From: the human T2T-CHM13v2.0 reference genome, Homo sapiens
Length of the DNA: 64,000 nucleotides
Strand: one strand, 5' to 3'
Assembly: GCF_009914755.1 (NCBI RefSeq)
Contig: NC_060929.1
The position numbers and the translations under genes are program-made. How positions within the stretch are numbered: the first letter of the stretch is position 1; every line of letters starts with the position of its first letter. Below the pieces are notes generated by a model. It saw only the letters and a list, made by a program, of their open reading frames with translations. It was not told where the DNA came from and did no database searches. Positions 5,900 to 44,750 of this stretch are shown piece by piece.

Positions 5900-7470
5900 A
5901 GGAGATGTTCATGCAGGACAGACAATGGGTATAGTGGTATCTCTGCCTCTATAAGTACCTGGGTTAGTGATTGAATCAGCCTCTCTGAGCCTCAGCATCC
6001 TCATCTATAAATGGGGATAAACCAGTTCATTGTGTTTCAATGATGAAATGAGATTATGGGTACAAAGTGCTCCATGCAATATCTGGTACTTATTTCATAA
6101 ATTTAATAAATGTTAGCTGGTATCATGTTTTCACTTAGGAGAAACAGCAAGGGTGCTTTTTTCAAAAACTCAGATTTAAATTATTAAGAAGAAATTCCAG
6201 GGTCTTGATTCAAGCTTAAAATTTGACTTACTACTCATACTATCCTAAACATTTCTTACAGTTTATTTCTCTGGAGGCAGGGATAACTTTTACCAGGTGT
6301 CTGTGCTTTTTGAGGACCACAATGTGGTACTCTCCTGGCCCCAGGAATTCACGCTGGTCTACTGCTAGCCCTCACTGGGTGGTCCTGATTCTGTGTGTTG
6401 CTCTTATTTCCTCTGTGAGTGTGATCAGGCCCCTCTGGCCAGAGCAGCTGTGGTGCCCGGGTCTCTGGCCCCTGCTTGCTATGCCTGCTTTTCTTTGCAT
6501 CCTGCCTTCTGCTCTTATTACAGACCTGCTTATTTGGGTCTTGCTTCCTTCCCCATCTCCATTTAACCCTGATCTCCTGCTTCCACAAACTCCTCCTTCA
6601 CCAGCCCCAGCTCCAGCTCATTTGCTTATGAGAAACTGCCAGCTCAGAGGTGAAAGGCACAGTCTCCAAAGCCAAGTCTGCTTGGGTGTGAATTCTGAGT
6701 TGGAATCTTGCCATTACATTTACTAGCATTTACAACCTTGGACAAATTATTTAATCTGCCTAAAGCTCAATTTCCTCATATGTAACACGGTCATAATAGT
6801 ACCTACCATACAGGGTTGGTGTACAGACTAAGTGAGCCCAATGGATGTAAGGTACTTACTTAGCACAGTGCTGGTCACATAGCCAGTATACATGGTTATT
6901 CACTTATCATCTTCAGCAGTCTTCACAAAAATTCTACGGAGGACCCCATTTTCTGACTTTATCTCCTGCTACTCCTCACTCACTTTGTGCCAACCACACT
7001 GGACTTGCTGTGGCTCAAGCTCCTTCCTTCCTTGAAGACCTTTGCACCCTTCCCCAGATCCATTTGTTAACTCCCTCACCATTTTTATATCTTTGCTCAA
7101 ACCTCTCTTTCACTACCCTATTTAAAATTGCAACCCCTGTCCCGAGCACTGCTGATTTCTCTCTTCCTTTTGATGTCTTTTTCTCCCCATAGAACTAAAC
7201 ATGGCATACTATATAGTAATCATGCTTTTGTTGACTGTCCCTTCCTTGCTGGAATGTCAGATCCATCAGTACAGGAACCTTTGACTGTTTTGTACTCTGT
7301 GGTACACTAAAGCAACTAGAATGTAGTAAGCACTCATTAAGTATGAAATTGGACACCATTTCTAGCCCCCTTTCACAAAGAAGGAGACTGAGGCTTAGAG
7401 TCAAGCTCAATGATCACACAGCTAAGAAATATAGCAGAGTGAGGCTTTGCACTCTGCCTCATCTGATGAA
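5900..7470. mobile_element. Cluster of MIR and L2 fragments interspersed with unique sequence
   Basis: MIR cores (ctctgagcctcag..ctcatctataaatgggg at ~5980; ctcaatttcctcatatgtaa at ~6765; gactgaggcttagag at ~7385) and an L2 3' end at ~7000-7350. Confidence 0.6.
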
Positions 7471-9971: not shown

Positions 9972-10335
9972 TATGCATGAACTTTTAAATAGTTCTCTGT
10001 TCCCTTTGCCTATGGAAATATTAGTAAATATTTATTGGGCACCTATTATGTGCTAGGCACTTTGTTAAGTCATGGGGACCCTGAAATTAGTAAGTCAGCC
10101 TTCCTCAAGTATTGGCAATGTAGTGGACAAGATAAACATGCATCCCAGCAATCAAATCACAGTTGCCTGGGATAAGCAATGATCAGTGATGCAATATCAC
10201 AGTGGAGGCCTGGAAATTGTTCTTGTGGGAGCAGACAGATTTGAATGACAAACCTTACCTTGGGAGGATCAGTAATTCTTCTCAGAGGAGGTGATGTTTC
10301 AAACTAGACATTGAAATGTATTTAAGAAGCCAGGC

Positions 10336-27340: not shown

Positions 27341-30300
27341 GTACTTTTCCCCCATTTTCCTCCTAGAATTGTTTTTTTATCCTTTATAAGACTTAGGCAG
27401 GTGCAGGATATATTTTCATCCCTGGACTCAAGTGTGGTGTCAAGACCCTTAACTTGTGACATGAATAGCAAGGAGCAGATTGGATTCCCACTGGAGTGGA
27501 GGCCCCTAATCATGGCTTCCTGGGATTTGTGTTATCTGCCTTCCCCTGTTAGATGCTGAGAACATAGAAGAAGAATACCAGGTTCTGGTTCAAGCTATAT
27601 CATTGGCACAGTCTGTGACCTAGAGCAGATCACTGCTCTCTTTCTCGTGAAAATCAAATTTAGTTTCCTACAAAATTTAAAGTTGAGCAGAGCCTTGGTT
27701 TAGTCTTACAGACTAAAAATCTTTTTTCCTTCCAGTTCAGTCACATAATATTTATAAGATGGTGAAGCCAAGTCACTTGCCCTCTCTGGCCCTGAGTCTC
27801 TTCATCTGTACAATAAGAGCAAGAACTAAATGCTCACCGGACTTCCCAGCAGCTCTTGGTTTCAAACTCAGGGGAGCTGCAGGAAGAAGCTGGCTCTACT
27901 CTGCCAAGTTCTGACTAGTGAGGGTTTGCAACAAAACCAGCCAGGGCTAGTCTAGGCAAAAAGGAGAGTTTATTTTAAAGATATTTGTGCAGCTCATAAA
28001 ATCAAAAAAAAAAAAGTTAAATAATGAGACACAGAGAAGTTGGGAACCAGGACAGCCTCAGGGATCTCTTCAGCGGGAGCTCATGACCCTTCCCCCTGGA
28101 GTGCTGCCATTAAGATCACTCCAAAAAAGCCTGTTTTTATGTTTCTTTCTTAAAAATGACAAATTCCAGAAGGAGAACTGCCAGGGGGCCATTCAGTTAT
28201 GGAGGGTAGGATTGGACAGGCCAACCAGCAGGAAAGTGTTGCTGGAGCCCAGCCTTGTTGGAGGAGCAGGTGGTTCCCAGGAGGACCTGGGCAGAACTCC
28301 CCACCACACACACAGGTACACCCTACAGAAAGAGCCCATGTGTCTGTAAATGATTGGGAAGCCAGGTCGGGATGTTAAATGTGGGTGGGAGACACAGTGG
28401 GCAGGTTCAATACTCTAGACCAGTAGCAGCCATGGTGATGGAATTCATTCAGCGTTTTCAGGCAGCTGTGCCTCATGGAAGAGTAACAGACTTCAAGGCA
28501 AAAGGCATGATGAGTGGACAGTCCATTAGGGATTGCTGGTGGCTGTGGGCACAAAGAAAGACAAACAGTGTGATCTCATGGGGAGGCTGACCACCACCAT
28601 GCTGGATTAGGATCCTCTCTTTTCAGCCAGGTCAAGGACAGGGTACTCTGGTCCCATCTTTTCTACTTTGATGACATTTGGGCAAGTTTCAACCTCTTGA
28701 GAGTTTTTCTGTTTCCTTATCTGTGAAGTGGGGATGAGAGCAATGATAATCATGCTACTCTTCCAACTGACAACAGTACGGCAGGCGCTAACATCTGCTG
28801 GGGCCAGGCACCCATGCTGAGAACTTCCCATGTGGGTTGATCCTCGCAATCCTCTGACACAGTACTGTTATGGTTTACACTTTGCCCAAGGCTTGTGGGA
28901 ATTAAGGGGGCAGTAAAGTGTAGAGCAAAGCAGTGTGCAAAGAGACTGAGAGGCTGGGCTCAGGAGCTGATGGCCAGTTTTGAATTCTGGCTCTGACACT
29001 CACTGGCCTGGTGTTTTCTGGCATGTTGCGTGAGCTTCATTAATTTGTAAAGTGGGTGTGATACTAGTGCCTGCCTCATGCTGTGGTTGTGAGGAGTGAG
29101 TGATTTCACAGGCATCCAGGAAGGTGCCTGGAGCAGAGCAGTGCTCTGTAATGTTTGCTGTTGTTTGTAATAAAGTGCCTGCCGGGCAGTGGGGATTTGA
29201 ACCCAAAGCAGATTGACTCTAGAATATATATGCTGTGGCAGTTATCTCTGGTGGCAGAACAAGAAGGCTCAGGAGTGAGCTGTGTAAAAGCCGGGGTGGG
29301 GGTGAGTTAGCAGAGGGAGCTATGGAACTAGGGAGAGGAAGAGAATGAGGAGCCCTAGGCACGTAGCCACTTCAACACTCCTTGTCTCTGTGACCTTGAG
29401 CTGGACCCAGAAGGTCAGCAGCAATTGCTGAGTCCCCATAACCAACGGGAACATTCAGCACTGACTTCACTTATGCTTCTGACTTCAGGAGGGCTTTAGA
29501 GAGGGGGTTAGTTAGAAAAAGAAGGAAAGAAAGAGAGACAGAGAGTGACTAAGACAGAAAGAGAGTGATGAAGTCAGGGGGAGGGTGGGGAGAGAACTAG
29601 ATATAAAGACATAGAAACCCAAGGAGAGAAAGAGAGTGATTGACACTCAAGAAGATAAACAGAAGAGGCACACACTTAAAGCCACAGAAATGAAGTAGAA
29701 AGACGGGAAAGAAGGGTGAGGGGAAGGATGGGGATTTTGCAGAGACAGTGCTGAGGGGGCTGTGACTGGCTGGCCTGCTCTGTGGTTGAGGAGCAAACAA
29801 ACCTGTTAAGTGTGTCAGTGCTTTATCTAGGAAAGCACCTTTGCCAAGGCCCGGGCACACTGAGGAGCTTTTTGAGCGTGTAGGGCTGTGACAGGAGAGA
29901 CTCTCTTTATCTGAATTGGAGACAGGAGCACTCTTCTGTGCATTTCACACTGGATGCCACAGATTAGGCTGCGGATATTTCACGGTTGGTGATAAACATT
30001 TGTTTGGAGAAGCCTTGAGCAGAGCAACACTCCTAAGGCTGGGGGAAGGGGTTGATAACAGGCAGGTACCTGGAGACTGGTTTTACATGAGGGACTGGTT
30101 CTATGCAATTTTACACTTGTATATTATTATAGGCATTGAAAGTCCCTAGAAGGATACCCATTAAAACTTTGACAATAGCTAACCTCCCTGGTTGGATTAA
30201 TGAGGAGTCTCACCTTCTAAGTTATGTATTTCAGTTAGGTTTACATGTTTTACAGTGTAGGGATTTTATAATCAGAGAAACAAAGGCTTAAGGTAATAAG

Positions 30301-30729
30301 TTAACTCCTGAAATGAAGGAAGGGAAAGCAATGGCCCCTGACATAAAACAGGTTGTTGGGGCTCATCCGACAAACAGACAATGGGTGGCGGAAATGGCAG
30401 TGCATTTGAAAATATTTCTCCTTGATATTTCCAAGTTACTTTGAAAATCTGATGATCACAATCTTTCCTCTGATTCTTGCAGAAGGGTGAAATTATTAAT
30501 GTCTCCTCAGCTCAGACAAATTTCCTTCCTTTGGGGTTTCCTTGGGGTTTAAAAAAATACGGCAGAAGGTGTATGCCCTGTTAGTTGGTGGGTTTCTGTT
30601 GGGTATGGTGGATATGAGGCTTTTCCCTTGAGAGAATGATGCACGCAGCATCTGCAGAATCCTCTCCTCCTTGAAGTCCCCACCTCCCACTCCTTTTTGT
30701 TTTAAATTTTAAATGAAGTTTGTGCCTAG

Positions 30730-30966
<237 letters not shown>

Positions 30967-31729
30967 TAATATCTTCTTTTACTTAAATATGCAAACTTGT
31001 ATCCAGTGAAGGCCTGGGCTGGCCACTAGGTTAAAGACCAAGGGCTCCTCAGGACAAGAGAAAACGTATTTATTGTTTGTTACCCATGAAGCTAGCAGTG
31101 CCTTCTTTTAAAATAGCTCTGAAATTTTTGTTACCTAGAAGGAAATTAGTCAAACCGGATCCACTTCCAATGGAGAGAACAGTTCATGGTAGCAGTCTCT
31201 TAAACTGAGTTTAATTCTCGACAACATAAAGTCAGGGACCCTTTTGGGATTAAAGAGGGCTCCTCAATAAACAAGAGGTGCTTTGGAGAGAATGAGTCCT
31301 CTCATGTGTGGTCCACGATGCTAATCTGTGAAGACTGCAAATCTTTGAGAAACTGTGAGGCCTATCCCTGTGTTTGGGAAGGAGTTGAGCAGCTAAGAGT
31401 CTGAATGAAGAGGCTGTTTCAGGGAGACTTCAGAACTTTCACAGAATGCACTTGCAGGCACTGGGGGTGCGGGTGGGGGAAGCTGGGAGTGCCTGATGTG
31501 CTGTGAATAAACGAAGCCCAAACACATTTATCTAAATCAATGAGTTAATGCAGATTGCTGCTGCTTTTTTTTTTTAAATCAATATTATTCTTTTAGATGC
31601 TAATTTAAAGATCCATTATGCCTGAGATGCCCAGGCACTGGTTAGAATTAATGACGTACTAGTGTTTAGCTAGAATGAAGGTGAGGAAGCAGAGGTGGAA
31701 GTCAGCCTGGGGAATGTTTGCTTCTCATG

Positions 31730-31902
31730 CTATGGGTCCAGACTGTGCACGTTAGAATTGTGTGGGGATCTTTAATAAATTCTGATGCCTGGTTACAACC
31801 ACCCGACTTTCTAATTTAATTGGTATGGAGTGTGACCCAGGCCAGGGGATTTAAAAAATTCCCCAGGTGATTTTACTGTGAAGCAAAGTTTGAGAACCAC
31901 TC
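31730..31902. mobile_element. MER5A-family hAT element
   Basis: ...ccccaggtgattttactgtg..caaagtttgagaaccact terminus. Confidence 0.75.
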
Positions 31903-31939
31903 TGCTGATGGCTTCCTTTAATTTAACAAACAGTGGAAA

Positions 31940-32005
31940 CCTGTGTGTTGGGGAAGGCAACTATCTTATTCATATGTGTCTTCAACACTCAGAATAATCC
32001 TGATA
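31940..32005. mobile_element. L2 3'-end fragment, first half (interrupted by the inverted duplication)
   Basis: gaaggcaactatcttattcatatgtgtcttcaacactcagaataatcctgata resembles the L2 3' consensus; it continues at ~32886-32925 (tagttgatgcttaatagatatctgttgaattaattaatg). Confidence 0.6.
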
Positions 32006-32014
32006 ATTCTAAAA

Positions 32015-32809
32015 TTTATTCTCCTCAGAATGTGTATCTGTATTTCTTGATCTAACTGAATAACTGAAGGTCCTAACACTATTTGGTCTTATGTAACAAG
32101 GTTAGGAACATAAATACCCTCCTCTAGAATCCACTAGTAAAATACCCAAAAAGCTTCTGTTTTATGATGAGATAGAGGAGGAAGAGGTATAAATGATTAA
32201 AAATGATTTAAACCAAACTATGTAACAGGCTTTATATTTCATGCTTCACATATATTACTTTATTTCACCCTCTCAAAAATCCTCTAAATTACACATTAGG
32301 CCTGCCATGTTATAAAAGGATAAACTGAGGCTCAGAAAGCTGAAACGATGTGCCTAAGGCTACATGCCCACATCTCTCTGGTCAAAAGCCAAAGCTCCTT
32401 CTCCTGCAGCAAATCTCAAAGTCTATAGAAGAGTCCTTGTGTGGGATTTGCTGACATCACATGGGCTTCACCCCTCTGCCCTCATCACTAAGTTCTCTTC
32501 ACATGGTACTGCTTTCCATATTTGAACATAACTTTAAATTCTTCTTTGATAACTTTTCAACAGCCATACACATAGGTGGAAAGCATCATTGGTTTTATGA
32601 AAATCCCTGAGGCTAAATTTGGCCCTTAGAGCAAATTGAAAAAGAGATGAAGCCCCTTTCTATGTCTCTGAGGTGGAAATCTATGGGAAGAAACCAGCAT
32701 AATCTGGCCCAAATCACAAGGAAAACAAGGCATTTCTAACACAGCTACCCGGACAAGAAGAACCTGGGTAAAAAGACTTATGCCAAAACCATAATAATCA
32801 TATGAGTTC
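32015..32809 (+). repeat. Long inverted repeat, left arm (~795 bp)
   Basis: Reverse complement of 33930-34725. Checked 60-bp blocks have about 1-9 differences, with a ~70 bp perfect stretch (tctcctgcagcaaatctc...cacatgggctt). Confidence 0.97.
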
Positions 32810-33929
32810 TCTAATCCTAATATTAGGATTATTCTGAGTGTTGAAAACACAATGATTAGTGTGTCTTCAACTAATAATCATTTATTAGTTGATGCTTAAT
32901 AGATATCTGTTGAATTAATTAATGTATAACACTAGGGATACGTCTTAAGGTTTCTATTTTATTGATGAGGGAATTGAAGCTCAGACAGTTGAAACAGCTT
33001 CCTCCAGGCACCATTGCTGAGAAGTGGGATGGCTCAGATTCATATCTGTTCCTGCCTGGCTCTAAAGACCATACTCACTACCACGGCATTAGCCTGTTCT
33101 TTATACTGTTTCTTTAGTCCCTGCTGGGGATGGATGTCTTCCTATGGATTAGTTGGGACTGCAGTCTTCTAGTTTTTATTTTTCCCTTACCCCCTCCTGG
33201 TTAAAAAGCAAACAAACAAAAAATGTATTCCTCATATTCCTAACCCCTTCATCATTCTCTGACTAAGGGGATAACAGGAGCAGGGGACAGCATGAGGAGA
33301 TGCGGCAGGAGCCCCAGCCAGCCACTGCATCTGTATCACACTGGAAGCAACTGAGCTTCTAGTGAGTAGCCACACAGTGTTGGGATATCTGGAGAGAGCC
33401 AAGGATGACCAATTGCCATGAGAGAGGCTATAGGGTTGAATCAGGTGTGAAATCAGCTCCAAGGAAGCTGAAGTGTGAAAGAGCAGAAATGATGAGCCAA
33501 TAGATAAAGCCAGTTTCTCATCCCAGAGGAGAAAGGCGCTGATGCCCCAAAGAAGTTGAGGTGCCATGGAGAGAAGAATGGAAGAGGGAATAGGTAATTT
33601 TGGAGCTACTCTTTCTAATTTCAGCACCTGTTTCCCTACGATGGGCTACACATATATTTGGGGAAGGAACAAAGGGAGAGAGACAGTAAGAAGGCAGGGA
33701 AAGAAAGAAGGAGAAAAAAAGGAAGCAAAGAGGAACAAGTGAGCATTTGCCGCTCTCAAGACACCTGGTCAATAGGAATGCCCTTCTTTATCAGCTGCAT
33801 GACCTTACATTGGTCACTTAACTTCTCAATGCCTCAGTTTCCTCATCTATAAGATTTCATTGTGTGGGTGAGGATCAAATAAACATTGTCTGCAAAAGAA
33901 CAAATTATAAAATGCTATGCAAATGCAGT

Positions 33930-34725
33930 GAACTAATATGATTATTATGGTTTTGGCATAAGTCTTTTTACCCAGGTGGTTCTTGTCTGGGTAGCTGTGT
34001 TAGAAATACCTTGCTTTCCTTATAATTTGGGCCAGGTTTGTTGGTTTGTTCTCATAGATTTCCACTCCAGAGACATAGAAAGGGGCTTCATCTCTTTTTC
34101 AATTTGCTCTAAGGGTCAAATTTAGCCTCAGGGATTTTCATAAAACCAATGATGCTTTCCACCTATTTACATAGCTATTGAAAAGTTATCGAAGAAGAAT
34201 TTAAAGTTACATTCTAATATGGAGAGCAGTACCATATGAAGAGAACTTAATGATGAGGGCAGAGGTGTCAAGCCCATGTGATGTCAGCAAATCCCACACA
34301 AGGACTCTTCTATAGACTTTGAGATTTGCTGCAGGAGAGGGAGCTTTGGCTTTTGACCAGAGAGATGTGGACATGTAGCCTTAGGCACATCGTTTCAGCT
34401 TTCTCGGCCTCAGTTTATCCTCTGTAACATGGAAGGCCAAATGTGTAATTTAGGGGATTATTGAGGGGGTGAAATAAAGTAATATATGTGAAACCTGAAG
34501 TATAAAGCCTGTTACATAGTTTGGTTTAAATCATTTTTTAATCATTTATACCTCTTCCTCCTTTACTTCATCATAAAACAGAAGCTTTTTGGGTATTTTA
34601 CTAGTGAGGATTCAGAAGGCGGGCATTTGTGTTCCTAATTTTGTTACACAAGACTAAATAGTGTTAGGATGTTCAGTTATTCAGTTAGATCAAGAAATAT
34701 AAATATACATTCTTAAGAGAATAAA
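33930..34725 (-). repeat. Long inverted repeat, right arm (~795 bp)
   Basis: Reverse complement of 32015-32809; contiguous with a MIR at ~33780-33950. Confidence 0.97.
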
Positions 34726-35852
34726 CCCACAAGAAGTGACTGTATGAAAACATGCATGGGAAAGTTTCAGCTAGTGAAATAGTACGAGGTGACCGGAGTC
34801 TTGATTCTGAGCCTGCATGGGGTGTGAGCTATTAGTAACATCAGCCATAAGTGCTGGCTGGGTGCAGAGGATATGAATGCCCGTGGTTGATGTTCCTGGT
34901 TCAAACTTTTCACATCCAGCTGGGTAGCGGCTTATGTTGGAAACCCTCTTTTGTGACCAATTTAATTGTGAGTAGAGCAGATCTGGTTCAAATCTCAGCT
35001 GTGTCCACTGTTAACTCTGAAACCTAAGCAAGTTATTGCCCATCTCTAATGCTCACCCAGCTTTTGTGAGTTGCTTTCTGTGGTTTTTCTTATTGTTCTG
35101 AGTCGGCGTGGCAGCAGCTCACCAAGACCACGGAGAATTGAAAGCCAGTAGTTCAGAGGAAAGGAGCAATAAAAACACTTTCTGCTGATCAGGTACCTAC
35201 CATGTTCCAGACATGGAACTGGGATCTTCATATACAGTGTTTTAAATCCCACCAGAGATCTTCAAGGAACCACTATCCTCAGTGTTCATAGGAGGCTCAT
35301 AAAGTTAAATAGTTCATCCCAAATTACATGTATTCATAGTGCTGGAGCTAGGATTTGAATCCATCCAGGTCATCTGCCTCCAAAGCACTATTCTCTATGC
35401 CACAGGTAAGGTTTAGGCCAGGGATTCCCATGTGTTTTCAACAATGGACCACATGCTCAGAAGTCCTTGTGTGTGCCAGCCCTGTGAGCGTGGTTGATAA
35501 AACTGATGGCAGATTCAGAGGGTCAACACCACACACATGTAAATTAGATAGAGCTCAAAAGTTAGTAAAAGACATATGGCGATGTTGTGCAGGCCAATTT
35601 GCCCCACTCTCCTTACGATCCATGGTATTTCATAATGCTCCAATTTGATGGCACAAGTGGAATTAAATGAACAGCTTGTATTGAATGACATGCTCTCTTG
35701 GCCACTGTGAATGCCACTTATGCTAATGAAGCCCCTGGAGTGTCCAGGAGGGCAGGGGACTCTGCCATTTATATCCCCAATGTCTGGAACAATGGCTGCC
35801 ACACAGAAAGTGCTCAAATATCTACTGTCTGAATGAATGAATGAATGAATAT

Positions 35853-36180
35853 GGCTGGGTGCAATGGTGCATGCCTGTAATCCCAGCACTTTAGGAGGCT
35901 GAGGTGAGAGGATCTCTCAAGCCTAGGAGTTCAAGACCAGGCTGGGGAACATAGTGAGACCCTGTCTCGACAAAAAATTAAAAAAAAAAAAATTAGCTAG
36001 GCATGGGGGCCTGCCCATGCCTAGTGGTGTATGCTTGTGGTCACAGCTACTCAGGAAGCTGAGGCAGGAAGATCACTTGAGCCTAGGGGATCAAGGCTGC
36101 AGTGAGCTGTGATAATGCCACTGCATTTCAGCTTGGGTGACAAAGCAAGACCCTGTCTCTTAAAATAAATAAATAAATAC
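35853..36180 (+). mobile_element. Alu (AluJ-like) at an L2 (GAAT)n tail
   Basis: Alu consensus; carries an internal fold-back insertion at 35997-36024. Confidence 0.9.
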
Positions 36181-36502
<322 letters not shown>

Positions 36503-36597
36503 TCAGTGTTTATTAAGTGTCAAGTGTTGAGCTAAAAGCTTTACATATATTGTTAGCTCAATTGATCTTTGTAACAACAACCTTATAAGACAAATAG

Positions 36598-36843
36598 TCT
36601 TTTTAAGTTCCATGACATACCTGCACAGAATGTGCAGGTTTGTTACATAGATATACATGTGCCATGGTGGTTTGCTGCACCTATCAACCTGTCATCTAGG
36701 TTTTAAGCCCTGCGTGCATCAGCTATTTGTCCCGATGTTCTCCCTGCCCTCACCCCCCCCCACCCCCTGACAGCTCCCCTGTGTGTTGTTCCCCACCCTG
36801 TGTTCTTATTCTTGCTCTCCCACTTATGAGCGAGAACATTTGG
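36598..36843 (-). mobile_element. L1PA 3'UTR fragment inside a MIR
   Basis: gtgcaggtttgttacatag..atacatgtgccatggtggtttgctgcacctatcaacc. Confidence 0.85.
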
Positions 36844-38304
36844 TATAAAGCGGAGATAAAGACTATATGCAAAGACAAATGGGCTTTATCTCTGCTTTCC
36901 AAATGAGGAAAATGAGGCTTAAAGAGGTTAAGTAACTTACCTTGGCTGAAAATTAGTATATCTTGGATTTAAATTTTGGCTGTGTAAGTCCAGAGTTTGA
37001 GTTCTTAATCACCACCAAACAATAGCGCAATTTCATTAAGACTAAAGTCTTCTGGCAAAACCCCAGGTGGATAAGACTCAGGGGACCCCATAAAGTTGAG
37101 TTACAGAAAGGATGGAAACACACATATTCTGGAACCTGTTGGTTCCTTTCCCTTCACTTTGCCTGAGAGATTAGTGATGAGACTGAATGTCCTGAGAGAG
37201 CTGCATTTATTTTCCTCGGGGACAACTCAGCATCTCAAAGGAAACTGCCTTCTTATGGTCATGCTATGGGGAATTCCTGTGACATCGTTTTTCCAGTTTC
37301 TATGGACCTTGATCATCCACTGCTTGGCTAAAATAAAAGGATTAAAAATTGAGGGGAATAGTACTTGTTTTGAATGCCTGTGGCTCTTGAATGAGGAAGC
37401 TATCTGGTAGCATTCTTGCATAACTGTGTATCATTTCAAGACATGTTCATTTTGGCCAGAAGTCTGAGTGTACTGGCACCAACACTGGTCACTCTGTTTG
37501 AAAGAGAGAGAAAGGGAGGAGAGAGAGAGAGAAAGAGTGAAAGAGAGAACAGGAAAGCCTGAAAGCACTCAGCAGACAAGTCCCTCTGAGTTTGGAGGCA
37601 TCCTAGTCTGGTTTTGATTTTTGTTGTTATGTTTAAACACTTGCCGTTTTCTAATTCTGGTGAAGTCCATCTAGATAGCAATGATCTCAAGTGTCCTCCC
37701 TTGATTTACCTCTGGGACAGTAAAACCACTCTTGGTTGCTTTGGGTTTGATTCTCTTCTTGAGGGATGTACCTGGCCTTTGGCAGAGGGGTTCAGAGTGG
37801 ACCCTTAATCTAGGAAATTCACTCAGTGCCACATGATCACCTAATTAGCAAGATAGCATTTTCCTGTTGGCCATTCTTGCAACCCCCTATAGATGTGGTA
37901 ATGAGGATCCTTAACTTAAGGAATGTCAGAAGAACTGCACTTTATTTTCAAAAACTATTCTTACAAAGGGTGGGGGAAGCTCTTTTTCCACTTCCTCCTC
38001 CAAATTAGCCTTCTCGCCCCTGCTGAATCCTCCCCACTTGCCGAGATAGAATGCCTTTCCTACAGCATGACAGGCAGTAGTGGACGTACTGGATAACAGC
38101 CAGCAGGACAGAGCTGGGTACACATCCTTGCTTTGCTTCTCATTAGCTACATGGCTTCTGGCAAGTTATTTAACTTCTTCTCCATGCCATAGTTTTCACA
38201 TTGGTAAAATGGGATTAACATTTTCCACTCATAGAGTAGTTGAAAGAATTAAATGAGATCATGCATGTAAAGTATTTGGCATGTAAACAGTTTCCAATAA
38301 TGGT

Positions 38305-43950: not shown

Positions 43951-44750
43951 ATGGAAGATTTTTGCTAGCTCCTTCTCATCCTTCAGACCCTCAGGCTAAA
44001 TGTTATCTTGGAAAAGCTACTGCTGGATATTGTAAATAAATTAAATTTCTCCCCCAGCCCCTGTGCCATTATTCTCTGACACAGCTCCCTATTTATTTCC
44101 TCCACTGCATACATCGCTGTGTATTGATTTGTTTGCTTCTGTGTCATTTGATGACCTCTATTAGAATGTAAGTTCCATGCCAAATGGGACCCAGTCTGTT
44201 CCCATTATATCCCCATTTCTCTGCGCTTTGCCTGTCTCATATTAAGTAGATGTTTAATAAGTCCTTGAAAGAATAAATGAATACAATAAGTTTATTTTGG
44301 AAAGCCGACAAGGACTATAATTTTGTTTCAGGGTATTTTGATTCTCACCCTATTTGGGAAGAGCTATCTCCCTTTTGATGTCCCAAACTGGTTCTAATCC
44401 ACAATTTTTCATAGTTTTAAAAAAAATTAGAGATTTTGATTTTAAGACTTATCATAAAGCATTACCAAGCATAAAACATTTGTAAGTAAAATGGTATGGT
44501 AATGAAGTCAGAACCTTGTTTTGAACTCTTGTTTCTTTAACTTCCTAGCTGCATAACCTTAGAAAAGTTAGCCTTTCTAAACCTGAGCTTTCTAACTTAT
44601 AAAATTGGGATAAGTATTGTATATAGCTTGTAGAGTTATGAAGTCTACATGGCATAATGAATGCAAAATGCAAAGTGTGTGCTTGGTACACGGTAACTGC
44701 TCAGGGCTATGGGTATTTTCAGATTTTTACGTCTCTTTTAATGCTACTAA

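What the first reader, a model, noticed from the sequence alone, without database searches (positions are those of the whole stretch)
31975..32925. Left arm is an insertion into an L2, with a mosaic of templated junction inserts (Pol-theta or template-switch scar)
Seen: (i) 31975-32005 (tgtgtcttcaacactcagaataatcctgata) recurs inverted at 32821-32851 with 2 mismatches in 31 bp, so it brackets the arm like terminal inverted repeats. (ii) A perfect 20-bp palindrome, taatcctaatattaggatta, at 32812-32831. (iii) A direct copy of tgtgtcttcaac at 32860-32871. (iv) A perfect 11-bp hairpin, tcaactaataa-tcat-ttattagttga, at 32867-32892, which also reuses taataatcat from the arm end. The sequence before 32005 and after ~32886 reads as two halves of one L2 3' end, while the right arm continues smoothly from a MIR. 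Inference: the right arm is the donor, and the left arm was copied in inverted orientation into a break ~1.1 kb away, with repeated snap-back synthesis. Templated junction inserts are the established signature of polymerase-theta end joining and MMBIR/FoSTeS. This would be an unusually legible germline fossil of such an event.
Basis: partly seen in the sequence, partly recalled or inferred. Interest (0 to 1): 0.72.

Follow-up and report, generated by a model that had tools for sequence, protein, structure and literature searches.

The report
Old break-repair scar with inverted duplication
An 0.8-kb piece of a DOCK2 intron was long ago copied backwards into a nearby break inside an old L2 repeat, leaving a patchwork of short copied snippets at the joint; it is a clear but ordinary example of a known kind of DNA-repair scar.

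Summary
Three exceed chance in 200 shuffles. The 12-nt direct copy alone does not. They lie at the inner end of the left arm (32015-32809) of a 795-bp inverted duplication. Its partner is 33930-34725, 92.06% identical. The arm has only these two full-length copies in the genome, and the 31-nt bracket only its two sites, so this is not a transposon with terminal inverted repeats. Removing 32006-32883 in silico restores a gap-free match to an L2 3'-tail profile: 16.1 bits against 0.5 unexcised. 10 of 600 random left flanks scored as high. This supports the left arm as the inserted copy. The claimed MIR continuity into the right arm was not found. New here: the first bases right of the break (32883-32890) are the exact reverse complement of the innermost bases of the right arm (33931-33938). 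That occurred in 3 of 5000 simulated junctions. A second short copy of the arm end abuts them. Best reading: one microhomology-guided fold-back or template-switch repair event. The pathway (Pol-theta/SD-MMEJ or MMBIR) cannot be decided, and no primate outgroups were available. It is a new example of a known kind, of modest interest.

The parts
31951..32005 (+). Left half of an old L2 3' tail. Its last ~39 nt (31967-32005) served as template for three junction pieces.
   Evidence: After in-silico excision of 32006-32883 this stretch aligns to L2-tail profile positions 107 onward with no gap at the joint, 16.1 bits. Alone it gives no hit.
32006..32014 (.). 9-nt filler at the outer junction. Its origin is unknown, and the first 2 nt are ambiguous with the L2 right half.
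   Evidence: No match of 10 nt or more in 29000-38000. Only chance-level 9-mers were found. No local repeats lie within +/-120 nt.
32015..32809 (-). Left arm: the derived, inverted copy of 33930-34725.
   Evidence: 793 aligned positions, 730 identical (92.06%), 46 transitions, 17 transversions, 4 indel events, K2P 0.085. The genome holds only these two full-length copies.
32812..32822 (+). Direct copy of 31995-32005 (10 of 11). It forms the left half of the perfect palindrome 32812-32831.
   Evidence: It shares the derived base (32819) with its palindromic partner 32824, while 32002 keeps the L2-profile base.
32821..32859 (-). Inverted copy of 31967-32005: 29 of 31 in the core, about 35 of 39 with one 1-nt gap.
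   Evidence: (I6). The 31-nt sequence occurs only at these two places genome-wide at up to 3 mismatches.
32860..32871 (+). Direct copy of 31975-31986 (12 of 12). Its last 5 nt overlap the left stem of the hairpin.
   Evidence: Not above chance alone (17 of 200 shuffles). It is counted because it abuts the other copies of the same 39-nt template.
32872..32882 (-). Second, short inverted copy of the right arm's inner end (33939-33947), plus a 2-nt T-run excess.
   Evidence: 32872-32890 against the reverse complement of 33931-33947: 17 of 17 matches with one 2-nt gap. 5 of 5000 random 46-mers score as high.
32883..32890 (+). 8-nt microhomology. It is the first bases of the L2 right half and the exact reverse complement of 33931-33938 at the right arm's inner boundary.
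   Evidence: direct check. 8 nt or more was seen in 3 of 5000 simulated junction pairs with the same spacing and +/-2 offsets.
32884..32925 (+). Right half of the same L2 3' tail.
   Evidence: 32887-32915 aligns to L2-tail profile positions 168-196, 24 of 29 identical. It is collinear with the left half after excision.
32867..32892 (.). 11-bp stem, 4-nt loop hairpin spanning the last junction pieces.
   Evidence: 1 of 200 shuffles reaches it.
33930..34725 (+). Right arm: the inferred donor, which contains a MIR at 34374-34526.
   Evidence: No cluster of local repeats lies at either of its boundaries. Its outer boundary lies in unique sequence.

Best explanation
This is a single ancient germline break-repair event. 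A break fell inside an L2 3' tail, between window positions 32005 and about 32883. Single-stranded DNA from one end primed synthesis on the sequence 1.05-1.84 kb to the right, in the opposite orientation, which is a fold-back or strand switch. That synthesis copied 795 nt and produced the left arm. The right arm's inner boundary sits exactly at an 8-nt inverted microhomology with the other side of the break. The long copy ran at least 1 nt past that microhomology. The end then went through further short rounds of priming on the left flank: an 11-nt direct copy, a ~39-nt inverted copy and a 12-nt direct copy. A second 9-17-nt copy of the arm end followed, stopping at the microhomology, and there the two ends were annealed and sealed. 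The outer junction was closed with a 9-nt filler. What is shown: the tiling, the microhomology, the uniqueness in the genome, and the L2 collinearity after excision. What is inferred: that it was one event, the order of the switches, and the enzymes. The logic is that of synthesis-dependent microhomology-mediated end joining (Pol-theta type), stretched to kilobase scale. Replicative MMBIR/FoSTeS would leave the same scar. The inter-arm divergence (K2P 0.085) and recalled primate neutral rates suggest an age of roughly 30-45 million years.
For: Arms: 92.06% identity over 793 aligned nt. The genome has only these two full-length copies of the arm, and the 31-nt bracket occurs only at its two sites. 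L2 collinearity: excising 32006-32883 gives 16.1 bits with no gap at the joint, against 0.5 bits unexcised and 2.5 bits for the alternative join at 31974|32860. 0 of 99 and then 10 of 600 random left flanks reach 16.1 bits, and 4 of those 10 overlap detectable L2 or MIR copies. The junction pieces tile 32812-32890 almost without gaps. The 8-nt inverted microhomology lies at the arm boundary (3 of 5000 simulations). A second short copy of the arm end abuts it (5 of 5000). Repeat clustering is found only at the left arm's inner junction and not at either right-arm boundary. The palindrome halves share a derived base while the original keeps the L2-profile base, as expected if one half was copied from the other. 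Mismatches in the short copies (about 5 plus 1 gap in about 73 nt) fit the arms' 8% divergence, so they are compatible with one age. From the literature passages I read: Pol-theta inserts are flank-templated, reiterated, error-prone, and occur in both orientations (PMC5068794). Snap-back SD-MMEJ synthesises through a microhomology repeat that then pairs with the other end (PMC2943611). Human fold-back inverted duplications have 766 bp-70 kb spacers, 2-8 bp inverted microhomology, and insertions at 5 of 21 junctions (PMC3907307).
Against: No outgroup sequence was available, so the empty site was not observed. The L2 support is only moderate: the left half is undetectable alone, and 10 of 600 random flanks score as high. 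The MIR argument for right-arm ancestry failed. The outer junction shows no microhomology and its filler is unexplained. A 795-nt tract copied from 1-2 kb away is far beyond typical Pol-theta inserts, which are under 25 bp, with about 85% primed within 10 bp of the break (PMC5068794). Polarising arm differences with the MIR profile gave 5 right-arm, 5 left-arm and 5 neither, so there is no sign of error-prone long synthesis. The one-event claim rests on similar divergence and on a 1-nt overshoot, and both are weak evidence.
Confidence: 0.68

Rival explanations
1. Staged origin. A simple microhomology-mediated inverted insertion happened first. One or more later short-range template-switch mutations then added the ~60-nt block of L2-flank copies (32812-32871), the palindrome and the hairpin.
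For: The flank-derived block is bracketed by a ~18-nt direct repeat of the arm end (32792-32809 against 32872-32890), as a secondary insertion might be. Short template-switch mutations that create inverted repeats are reported as common in great-ape genomes (PMC7954356, abstract seen in the listing).
Against: The long arm includes at least 1 nt of donor sequence beyond the microhomology (32809, matching 33930). A simple first-step junction would not contain that base. The divergence of the short copies is similar to that of the arms. Every short piece is templated from the two break flanks, which fits one repair episode.
Confidence: 0.2
2. Reverse polarity: the left arm is ancestral and the right arm is the derived copy.
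For: No repeat element could be shown to span either right-arm boundary, so right-arm ancestry has no independent proof.
Against: Excising the left arm and the mosaic restores a collinear L2 tail. Junction debris lies only beside the left arm. The 8-nt microhomology links the L2 break end to the right arm's boundary.
Confidence: 0.06
3. 31967-32859 is a non-autonomous DNA transposon with ~31-39-nt terminal inverted repeats.
For: Inverted repeats bracket an ~0.8-kb body.
Against: The 31-nt sequence occurs only at these two sites in the 3.1-Gb genome at up to 3 mismatches, and the reversed control gave 0. The body has only its own two full-length copies. No target-site duplication flanks the pair. 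The left 'TIR' is part of an L2 tail.
Confidence: 0.01
4. The small repeats are chance matches in AT-rich sequence next to an unrelated inverted duplication.
For: The 12-nt and 10-nt exact repeats are individually at chance level (17 of 200 shuffles for 12 nt or more, with a mean longest direct repeat of about 10 nt).
Against: The 21-nt exact inverted core was reached in 0 of 200 shuffles, the palindrome in 0 of 200 and the hairpin in 1 of 200. The microhomology was reached in 3 of 5000 simulations and the second arm-end copy in 5 of 5000. All of these sit within 80 nt of one junction.
Confidence: 0.01

Closest known systems
Synthesis-dependent MMEJ / polymerase-theta-mediated end joining with templated inserts (PMC2943611, PMC5068794: passages read; PMC4912351: listing and abstract start only)
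   Same: The junction insert is built from short copies of both break flanks, in direct and reverse-complement orientation, with reiterated priming and mismatches in the copies. Synthesis ends at a sequence that is microhomologous to the other end. A zero-loop palindrome matches the reported 'snap-back priming between adjacent nucleotides'.
   Different: One templated tract is 795 nt long and was copied from 1.05-1.84 kb away. Typical inserts are under 25 bp and are primed within about 10 bp of the break. Dependence on the enzyme cannot be tested from sequence.
MMBIR / FoSTeS templated insertions and complex rearrangements (PMC8421209: passages read)
   Same: There are multiple serial template switches at microhomology, inverted and direct templates within a few kb, a net copy gain, and multi-part insertions.
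   Different: Nothing here shows replication-fork involvement. The outer junction has a filler and no microhomology. The event is small and local.
Fold-back inverted duplications with a single-copy spacer (PMC3907307: passages read)
   Same: The two inverted copies are separated by a single-copy spacer of about 1.05 kb in the inferred ancestral layout (reported range 766 bp-70 kb). There is inverted microhomology, here 8 nt against 2-8 bp reported, between the break end and the start of the duplicated segment. Some junctions carry insertions.
   Different: The published cases are megabase-scale, arise through a dicentric chromosome, and come with terminal deletions or translocations. This one is a 0.8-kb interstitial copy with both chromosome sides rejoined.
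Short-range template-switch mutations in great apes (PMC7954356, PMC8794818: listing and abstract starts only)
   Same: Local strand switching creates perfect inverted repeats and hairpins in germline DNA.
   Different: As I recall, those events are tens of bases long and replace sequence in place. Here they accompany a kb-scale inverted insertion.

Membership tests
Templated-insertion end-joining scar (SD-MMEJ / TMEJ type) | Insert pieces are identical or nearly identical to sequence in the immediate break flanks | tested here: met
   32812-32822, 32821-32859 and 32860-32871 copy 31967-32005.
Templated-insertion end-joining scar (SD-MMEJ / TMEJ type) | Both direct and reverse-complement (snap-back) pieces, with reiterated priming | tested here: met
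   Two direct and two inverted short pieces lie in series.
Templated-insertion end-joining scar (SD-MMEJ / TMEJ type) | Synthesis ends in a microhomology with the opposite end | tested here: met
   The 8-nt stretch 32883-32890 is shared between the second arm-end copy and the L2 right half.
Templated-insertion end-joining scar (SD-MMEJ / TMEJ type) | Inserts are short (mostly under 25 bp) and templated within about 10 bp of the break (PMC5068794) | tested here: not met
   The 795-nt tract was templated 1.05-1.84 kb away, and one flank copy is ~39 nt.
Templated-insertion end-joining scar (SD-MMEJ / TMEJ type) | Dependence on POLQ | not testable with these tools
   This is a fossil event, so only sequence is available.
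MMBIR / FoSTeS complex rearrangement | Two or more template switches with microhomology at the switch points | tested here: inconclusive
   At least 5 switches are inferred. Microhomology is 8 nt at the final joint, 5 nt (32867-32871) at one switch, 0-2 nt at the others, and none at the outer junction, which has a 9-nt filler.
MMBIR / FoSTeS complex rearrangement | Origin at a collapsed replication fork or in break-induced replication | not testable with these tools
   Sequence alone cannot separate replicative from non-replicative synthesis.
Fold-back inverted duplication | Single-copy spacer between the inverted copies, and inverted microhomology between the break end and the start of the duplicated segment | tested here: met
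   The spacer is 32884-33929, and there are 8 nt of inverted identity.
Fold-back inverted duplication | [quoted passage not shown] | tested here: not met
   Both L2 halves are retained and collinear, so the locus is interstitial and intact.
DNA transposon with terminal inverted repeats | Multiple genomic copies sharing the TIR | tested here: not met
   The bracket occurs at 1 forward and 1 reverse site only, both at this locus. The body has only its two local full-length copies.
DNA transposon with terminal inverted repeats | Target-site duplication flanking the TIRs | tested here: not met
   No direct repeat lies immediately outside 31967 and 32859.
L2 LINE 3' tail (target of the insertion) | The two flanks match consecutive positions of an L2 3'-tail profile | tested here: met
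   The profile was built from 30 natural copies. The joined flanks score 16.1 bits with no gap, and 10 of 600 random flanks score as high. The family name L2 is recalled: the fetching motif came from memory, and no RepeatMasker or Dfam was available.

The most novel reading that the evidence does not exclude
The scar records one germline repair episode in which a kilobase-range fold-back synthesis overshot its microhomology by a base or more. It was rescued by several Pol-theta-style short priming rounds on the opposite flank. It was finally resolved by re-copying the same donor end up to the 8-nt microhomology. This would be SD-MMEJ logic working at about 1-kb range in the primate germline, with a copy-of-a-copy error preserved in the palindrome.
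Probability: 0.4. Interest if true: 0.45.

Novelty: new member of a known kind. Interest (0 to 1): 0.3.

Why it matters
It gives a fully tiled, base-resolved example of a complex germline repair product. It combines a kilobase-range inverted copy with short templated inserts, and the microhomology that defines the donor boundary can still be read after about 8% divergence. Such fossils help calibrate how often and how far end-joining or template-switch synthesis reaches in the germline. No gene function is implied: the locus lies deep in a DOCK2 intron, no RNA family matches it, and events of this class are already well documented.

Tried and rejected
1. MIR continuity across the right arm's inner boundary. 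A MIR profile built from 30 natural copies matches 33789-33851 only. Neither the MIR nor the L2-tail profile finds anything in 33852-34000. My own by-eye impression of a MIR tail reaching the arm was therefore dropped.
2. A repeat spanning the right arm's outer boundary. A genome search with 34600-34900 found only itself and the left arm, so no test was possible.
3. L2 detection without excision. The left flank alone gives no hit, and the right flank gives -1.9 to 0.5 bits.
4. An L2 assignment for 31746-31907. It is a different repeat that matches in both orientations.
5. The alternative that 32860-32892 is the native L2 continuation. It scores 2.5 bits against 16.1.
6. Polarising arm differences with the MIR profile to look for error-prone synthesis. 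The result was 5 right-arm, 5 left-arm and 5 neither, which is uninformative.
7. Templates for the 9-nt outer filler and the 'tc' at 32810-32811. Only chance-level 8-9-mers were found.
8. Rfam scan of 31000-35500: 0 matches at E up to 1.
9. Literature search for DOCK2 + inverted repeat + A-to-I editing: 0 papers.

Full report
**The observation**

The window is human chr5, inside a DOCK2 intron. Reading 31500-34800 and scanning for repeats shows a large inverted duplication. The left arm is 32015-32809 and the right arm is 33930-34725. Over 793 aligned positions, 730 are identical (92.06%). There are 46 transitions, 17 transversions and 4 indel events, giving K2P 0.085. Non-overlapping 100-nt windows show no clear heterogeneity in divergence.

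- The 31-nt inverted pair 31975-32005 / 32821-32851 is 29 of 31 complementary (pair I6).
- The 20-bp perfect palindrome is at 32812-32831.
- The 12-nt direct copy is at 32860-32871.
- The 11+4+11 hairpin is at 32867-32892.

I tested these against 200 dinucleotide-preserving shuffles of 31900-33000:

| Feature | Shuffles reaching it |
|---|---|
| 21-nt exact inverted core | 0 of 200 |
| 10-bp zero-loop stem (the palindrome) | 0 of 200 |
| 11-bp hairpin | 1 of 200 |
| 12-nt exact direct repeat | 17 of 200 |

The 12-nt copy is therefore not significant by itself.

**Uniqueness in the genome**

The window's own assembly could be searched. The arm has exactly two full-length copies, both at this locus. 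The only other hit is a 50-nt match on another chromosome over the arm's MIR part. The 31-nt bracket, allowing up to 3 mismatches, occurs once forward and once reverse, both at this locus. The reversed control gave 0. This excludes a transposon family with these terminal inverted repeats.

**Is the target an L2 tail?**

No RepeatMasker or Dfam was available, so I built my own profile:
- I fetched 30 natural copies carrying a recalled 26-nt L2-tail motif. The genome holds 93 exact matches and the reversed control gave 0.
- I built a profile of their last ~210 nt.

Results with this profile:
- The right flank 32887-32915 matches the tail weakly on its own, 24 of 29 identical and 0.5 bits. The left flank alone gives nothing.
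- When 32006-32883 is removed in silico, the joined flanks align over profile positions 107-196 with no gap at the joint and score 16.1 bits.
- The alternative join at 31974|32860 scores 2.5 bits, and the unexcised sequence scores 0.5 bits.
- With the same join grid, 0 of 99 and then 10 of 600 random left flanks from the window reach 16.1 bits. 4 of those 10 overlap detectable L2 or MIR copies.

The 'two halves of one L2 tail' statement is therefore supported at roughly the 1-2% level. The stretch 31746-31907, further left, is a different repeat. It matches 18 other loci, several of them in both orientations.

**Polarity**

This was not reproduced:
- A MIR profile from 30 natural copies matches 33789-33851, with an envelope to 33870.
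- Nothing is detected in 33852-34000 with either profile.
- The right arm's outer boundary lies in unique sequence.

Polarity therefore rests on three things:
- the L2 collinearity;
- the fact that local repeat debris occurs only beside the left arm's inner end and not at either right-arm boundary;
- the microhomology described below.

**Anatomy of the joint**

The inverted copy of the left flank extends, with one 1-nt gap, to 31967 / 32859, so it abuts the 12-nt direct copy. The tiling is then as follows:

| Coordinates | Content |
|---|---|
| to 32809 | left arm |
| 32810-32811 | 2 nt unassigned |
| 32812-32822 | direct copy of 31995-32005 (10 of 11) |
| 32821-32859 | inverted copy of 31967-32005 |
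| 32860-32871 | direct copy of 31975-31986 (12 of 12) |
| 32872-32890 | second short inverted copy of the right arm's inner end, 33931-33947 |
| 32884 onward | L2 right half |

The last copy matches 17 of 17 with one 2-nt gap, and 5 of 5000 random 46-mers score as high.

The key new point concerns 32883-32890. These are the first bases to the right of the break, and they are the exact reverse complement of 33931-33938, the innermost bases of the right arm. Among 5000 simulated junction pairs with the same spacing and +/-2 offsets, 3 had 8 nt or more. The donor boundary is thus defined by a microhomology with the break end.

The ~60-nt flank-derived block is bracketed by a ~18-nt direct repeat of the arm end (32792-32809 and 32872-32890).

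At the two mismatches between the 31-nt pair, the original (31980, 32002) keeps the L2-profile base. The two palindrome halves share the same derived base (32819/32824). This is what a copy of a copy would give, although later homogenisation is also possible.

**Mechanism**

The simplest account is one repair episode:
1. A 3' end folded back or switched strands to the region 1.05-1.84 kb away.
2. 795 nt were copied. The copy ran at least 1 nt past the microhomology, because 32809 matches 33930.
3. Several short priming rounds on the left flank followed.
4. A second short copy of the donor end stopped at the 8-nt microhomology, where the two ends annealed.
5. The outer junction was sealed with a 9-nt filler of unknown origin.

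The order and direction of these steps cannot be fixed, because a left-end-first path gives the same sequence.

The pathway also cannot be decided. In the passages I read:
- Pol-theta inserts are flank-templated, reiterated, error-prone and occur in both orientations. They are mostly under 25 bp and primed within about 10 bp of the break (PMC5068794).
- Snap-back SD-MMEJ synthesises through a microhomology repeat, and its authors even infer zero-loop snap-back (PMC2943611).
- MMBIR produces multi-part templated insertions (PMC8421209).
- Human fold-back inverted duplications show 766 bp-70 kb spacers, 2-8 bp of inverted microhomology, and insertions at 5 of 21 junctions (PMC3907307).

The present scar shares its logic with all of these and fits none exactly. 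It is too long-range for typical Pol-theta inserts. It is interstitial and tiny compared with the clinical fold-back cases.

**Rival explanations**

- A staged origin, with the insertion first and a later short template switch adding the 60-nt block, remains possible at about 0.2. Only primate comparisons can settle it.
- Reverse polarity is about 0.06.
- A transposon is about 0.01.
- Chance is about 0.01.

A test for error-prone long synthesis, which polarised arm differences with the MIR profile, gave 5, 5 and 5 and is uninformative.

**Age and consequences**

K2P 0.085 between the arms, together with recalled primate neutral rates, suggests roughly 30-45 million years. This is an inference and was not measured here.

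Both arms lie in one DOCK2 intron on the transcribed strand. As RNA they would pair over 749 of 795 nt at -1254.8 kcal/mol. No Rfam family matches 31000-35500. A literature search for DOCK2 with inverted repeat and A-to-I editing found nothing.

**Verdict**

It is unproven on the enzyme and wrong on the MIR argument. This is a new, nicely legible example of a known class of event and is of modest interest.

Noticed in passing
window 31746-31907: A repeat that matches 18 other genomic loci, several of them in both orientations, so it is internally palindromic and MITE-like. It ends at about 31907, just left of the L2 tail fragment. I could not name its family with the tools. It is not part of the L2.
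   Followed up: partly
window 32839-32851 and 35431-35443 (minus strand): An exact 13-nt match between the inverted flank copy and a site 2.6 kb to the right. It includes the base where the copy differs from its template at 31980. The match does not extend. It is probably chance, but it is unexplained.
   Followed up: partly
window 32015-32809 with 33930-34725: Both arms lie in one DOCK2 intron on the sense strand. In a co-fold, 749 of 795 nt pair (-1254.8 kcal/mol), with perfect runs up to about 69 bp (from the difference list). This could be a long non-Alu intronic dsRNA and so a possible ADAR substrate. I found no paper on it.
   Followed up: partly
window 33789-33851 (+), 32964-33084 (-), 34374-34526 (+) with its copy 32217-32364 (-): MIR copies in the spacer and inside the arms. 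The arm-internal MIR shows that the duplicated unit is ordinary mixed intronic sequence and not a single repeat family.
   Followed up: yes
window 32914-32923: A 10-nt perfect palindrome inside the end of the L2 tail. It probably reflects the tail's own sequence and not the repair event.
   Followed up: no
window 7124-7336, 10026-10132, 35689-35850, 43998-44247: The best matches in the window to my L2-tail profile (E from 7e-12 to 9e-8). They served as positive controls for the profile.
   Followed up: no
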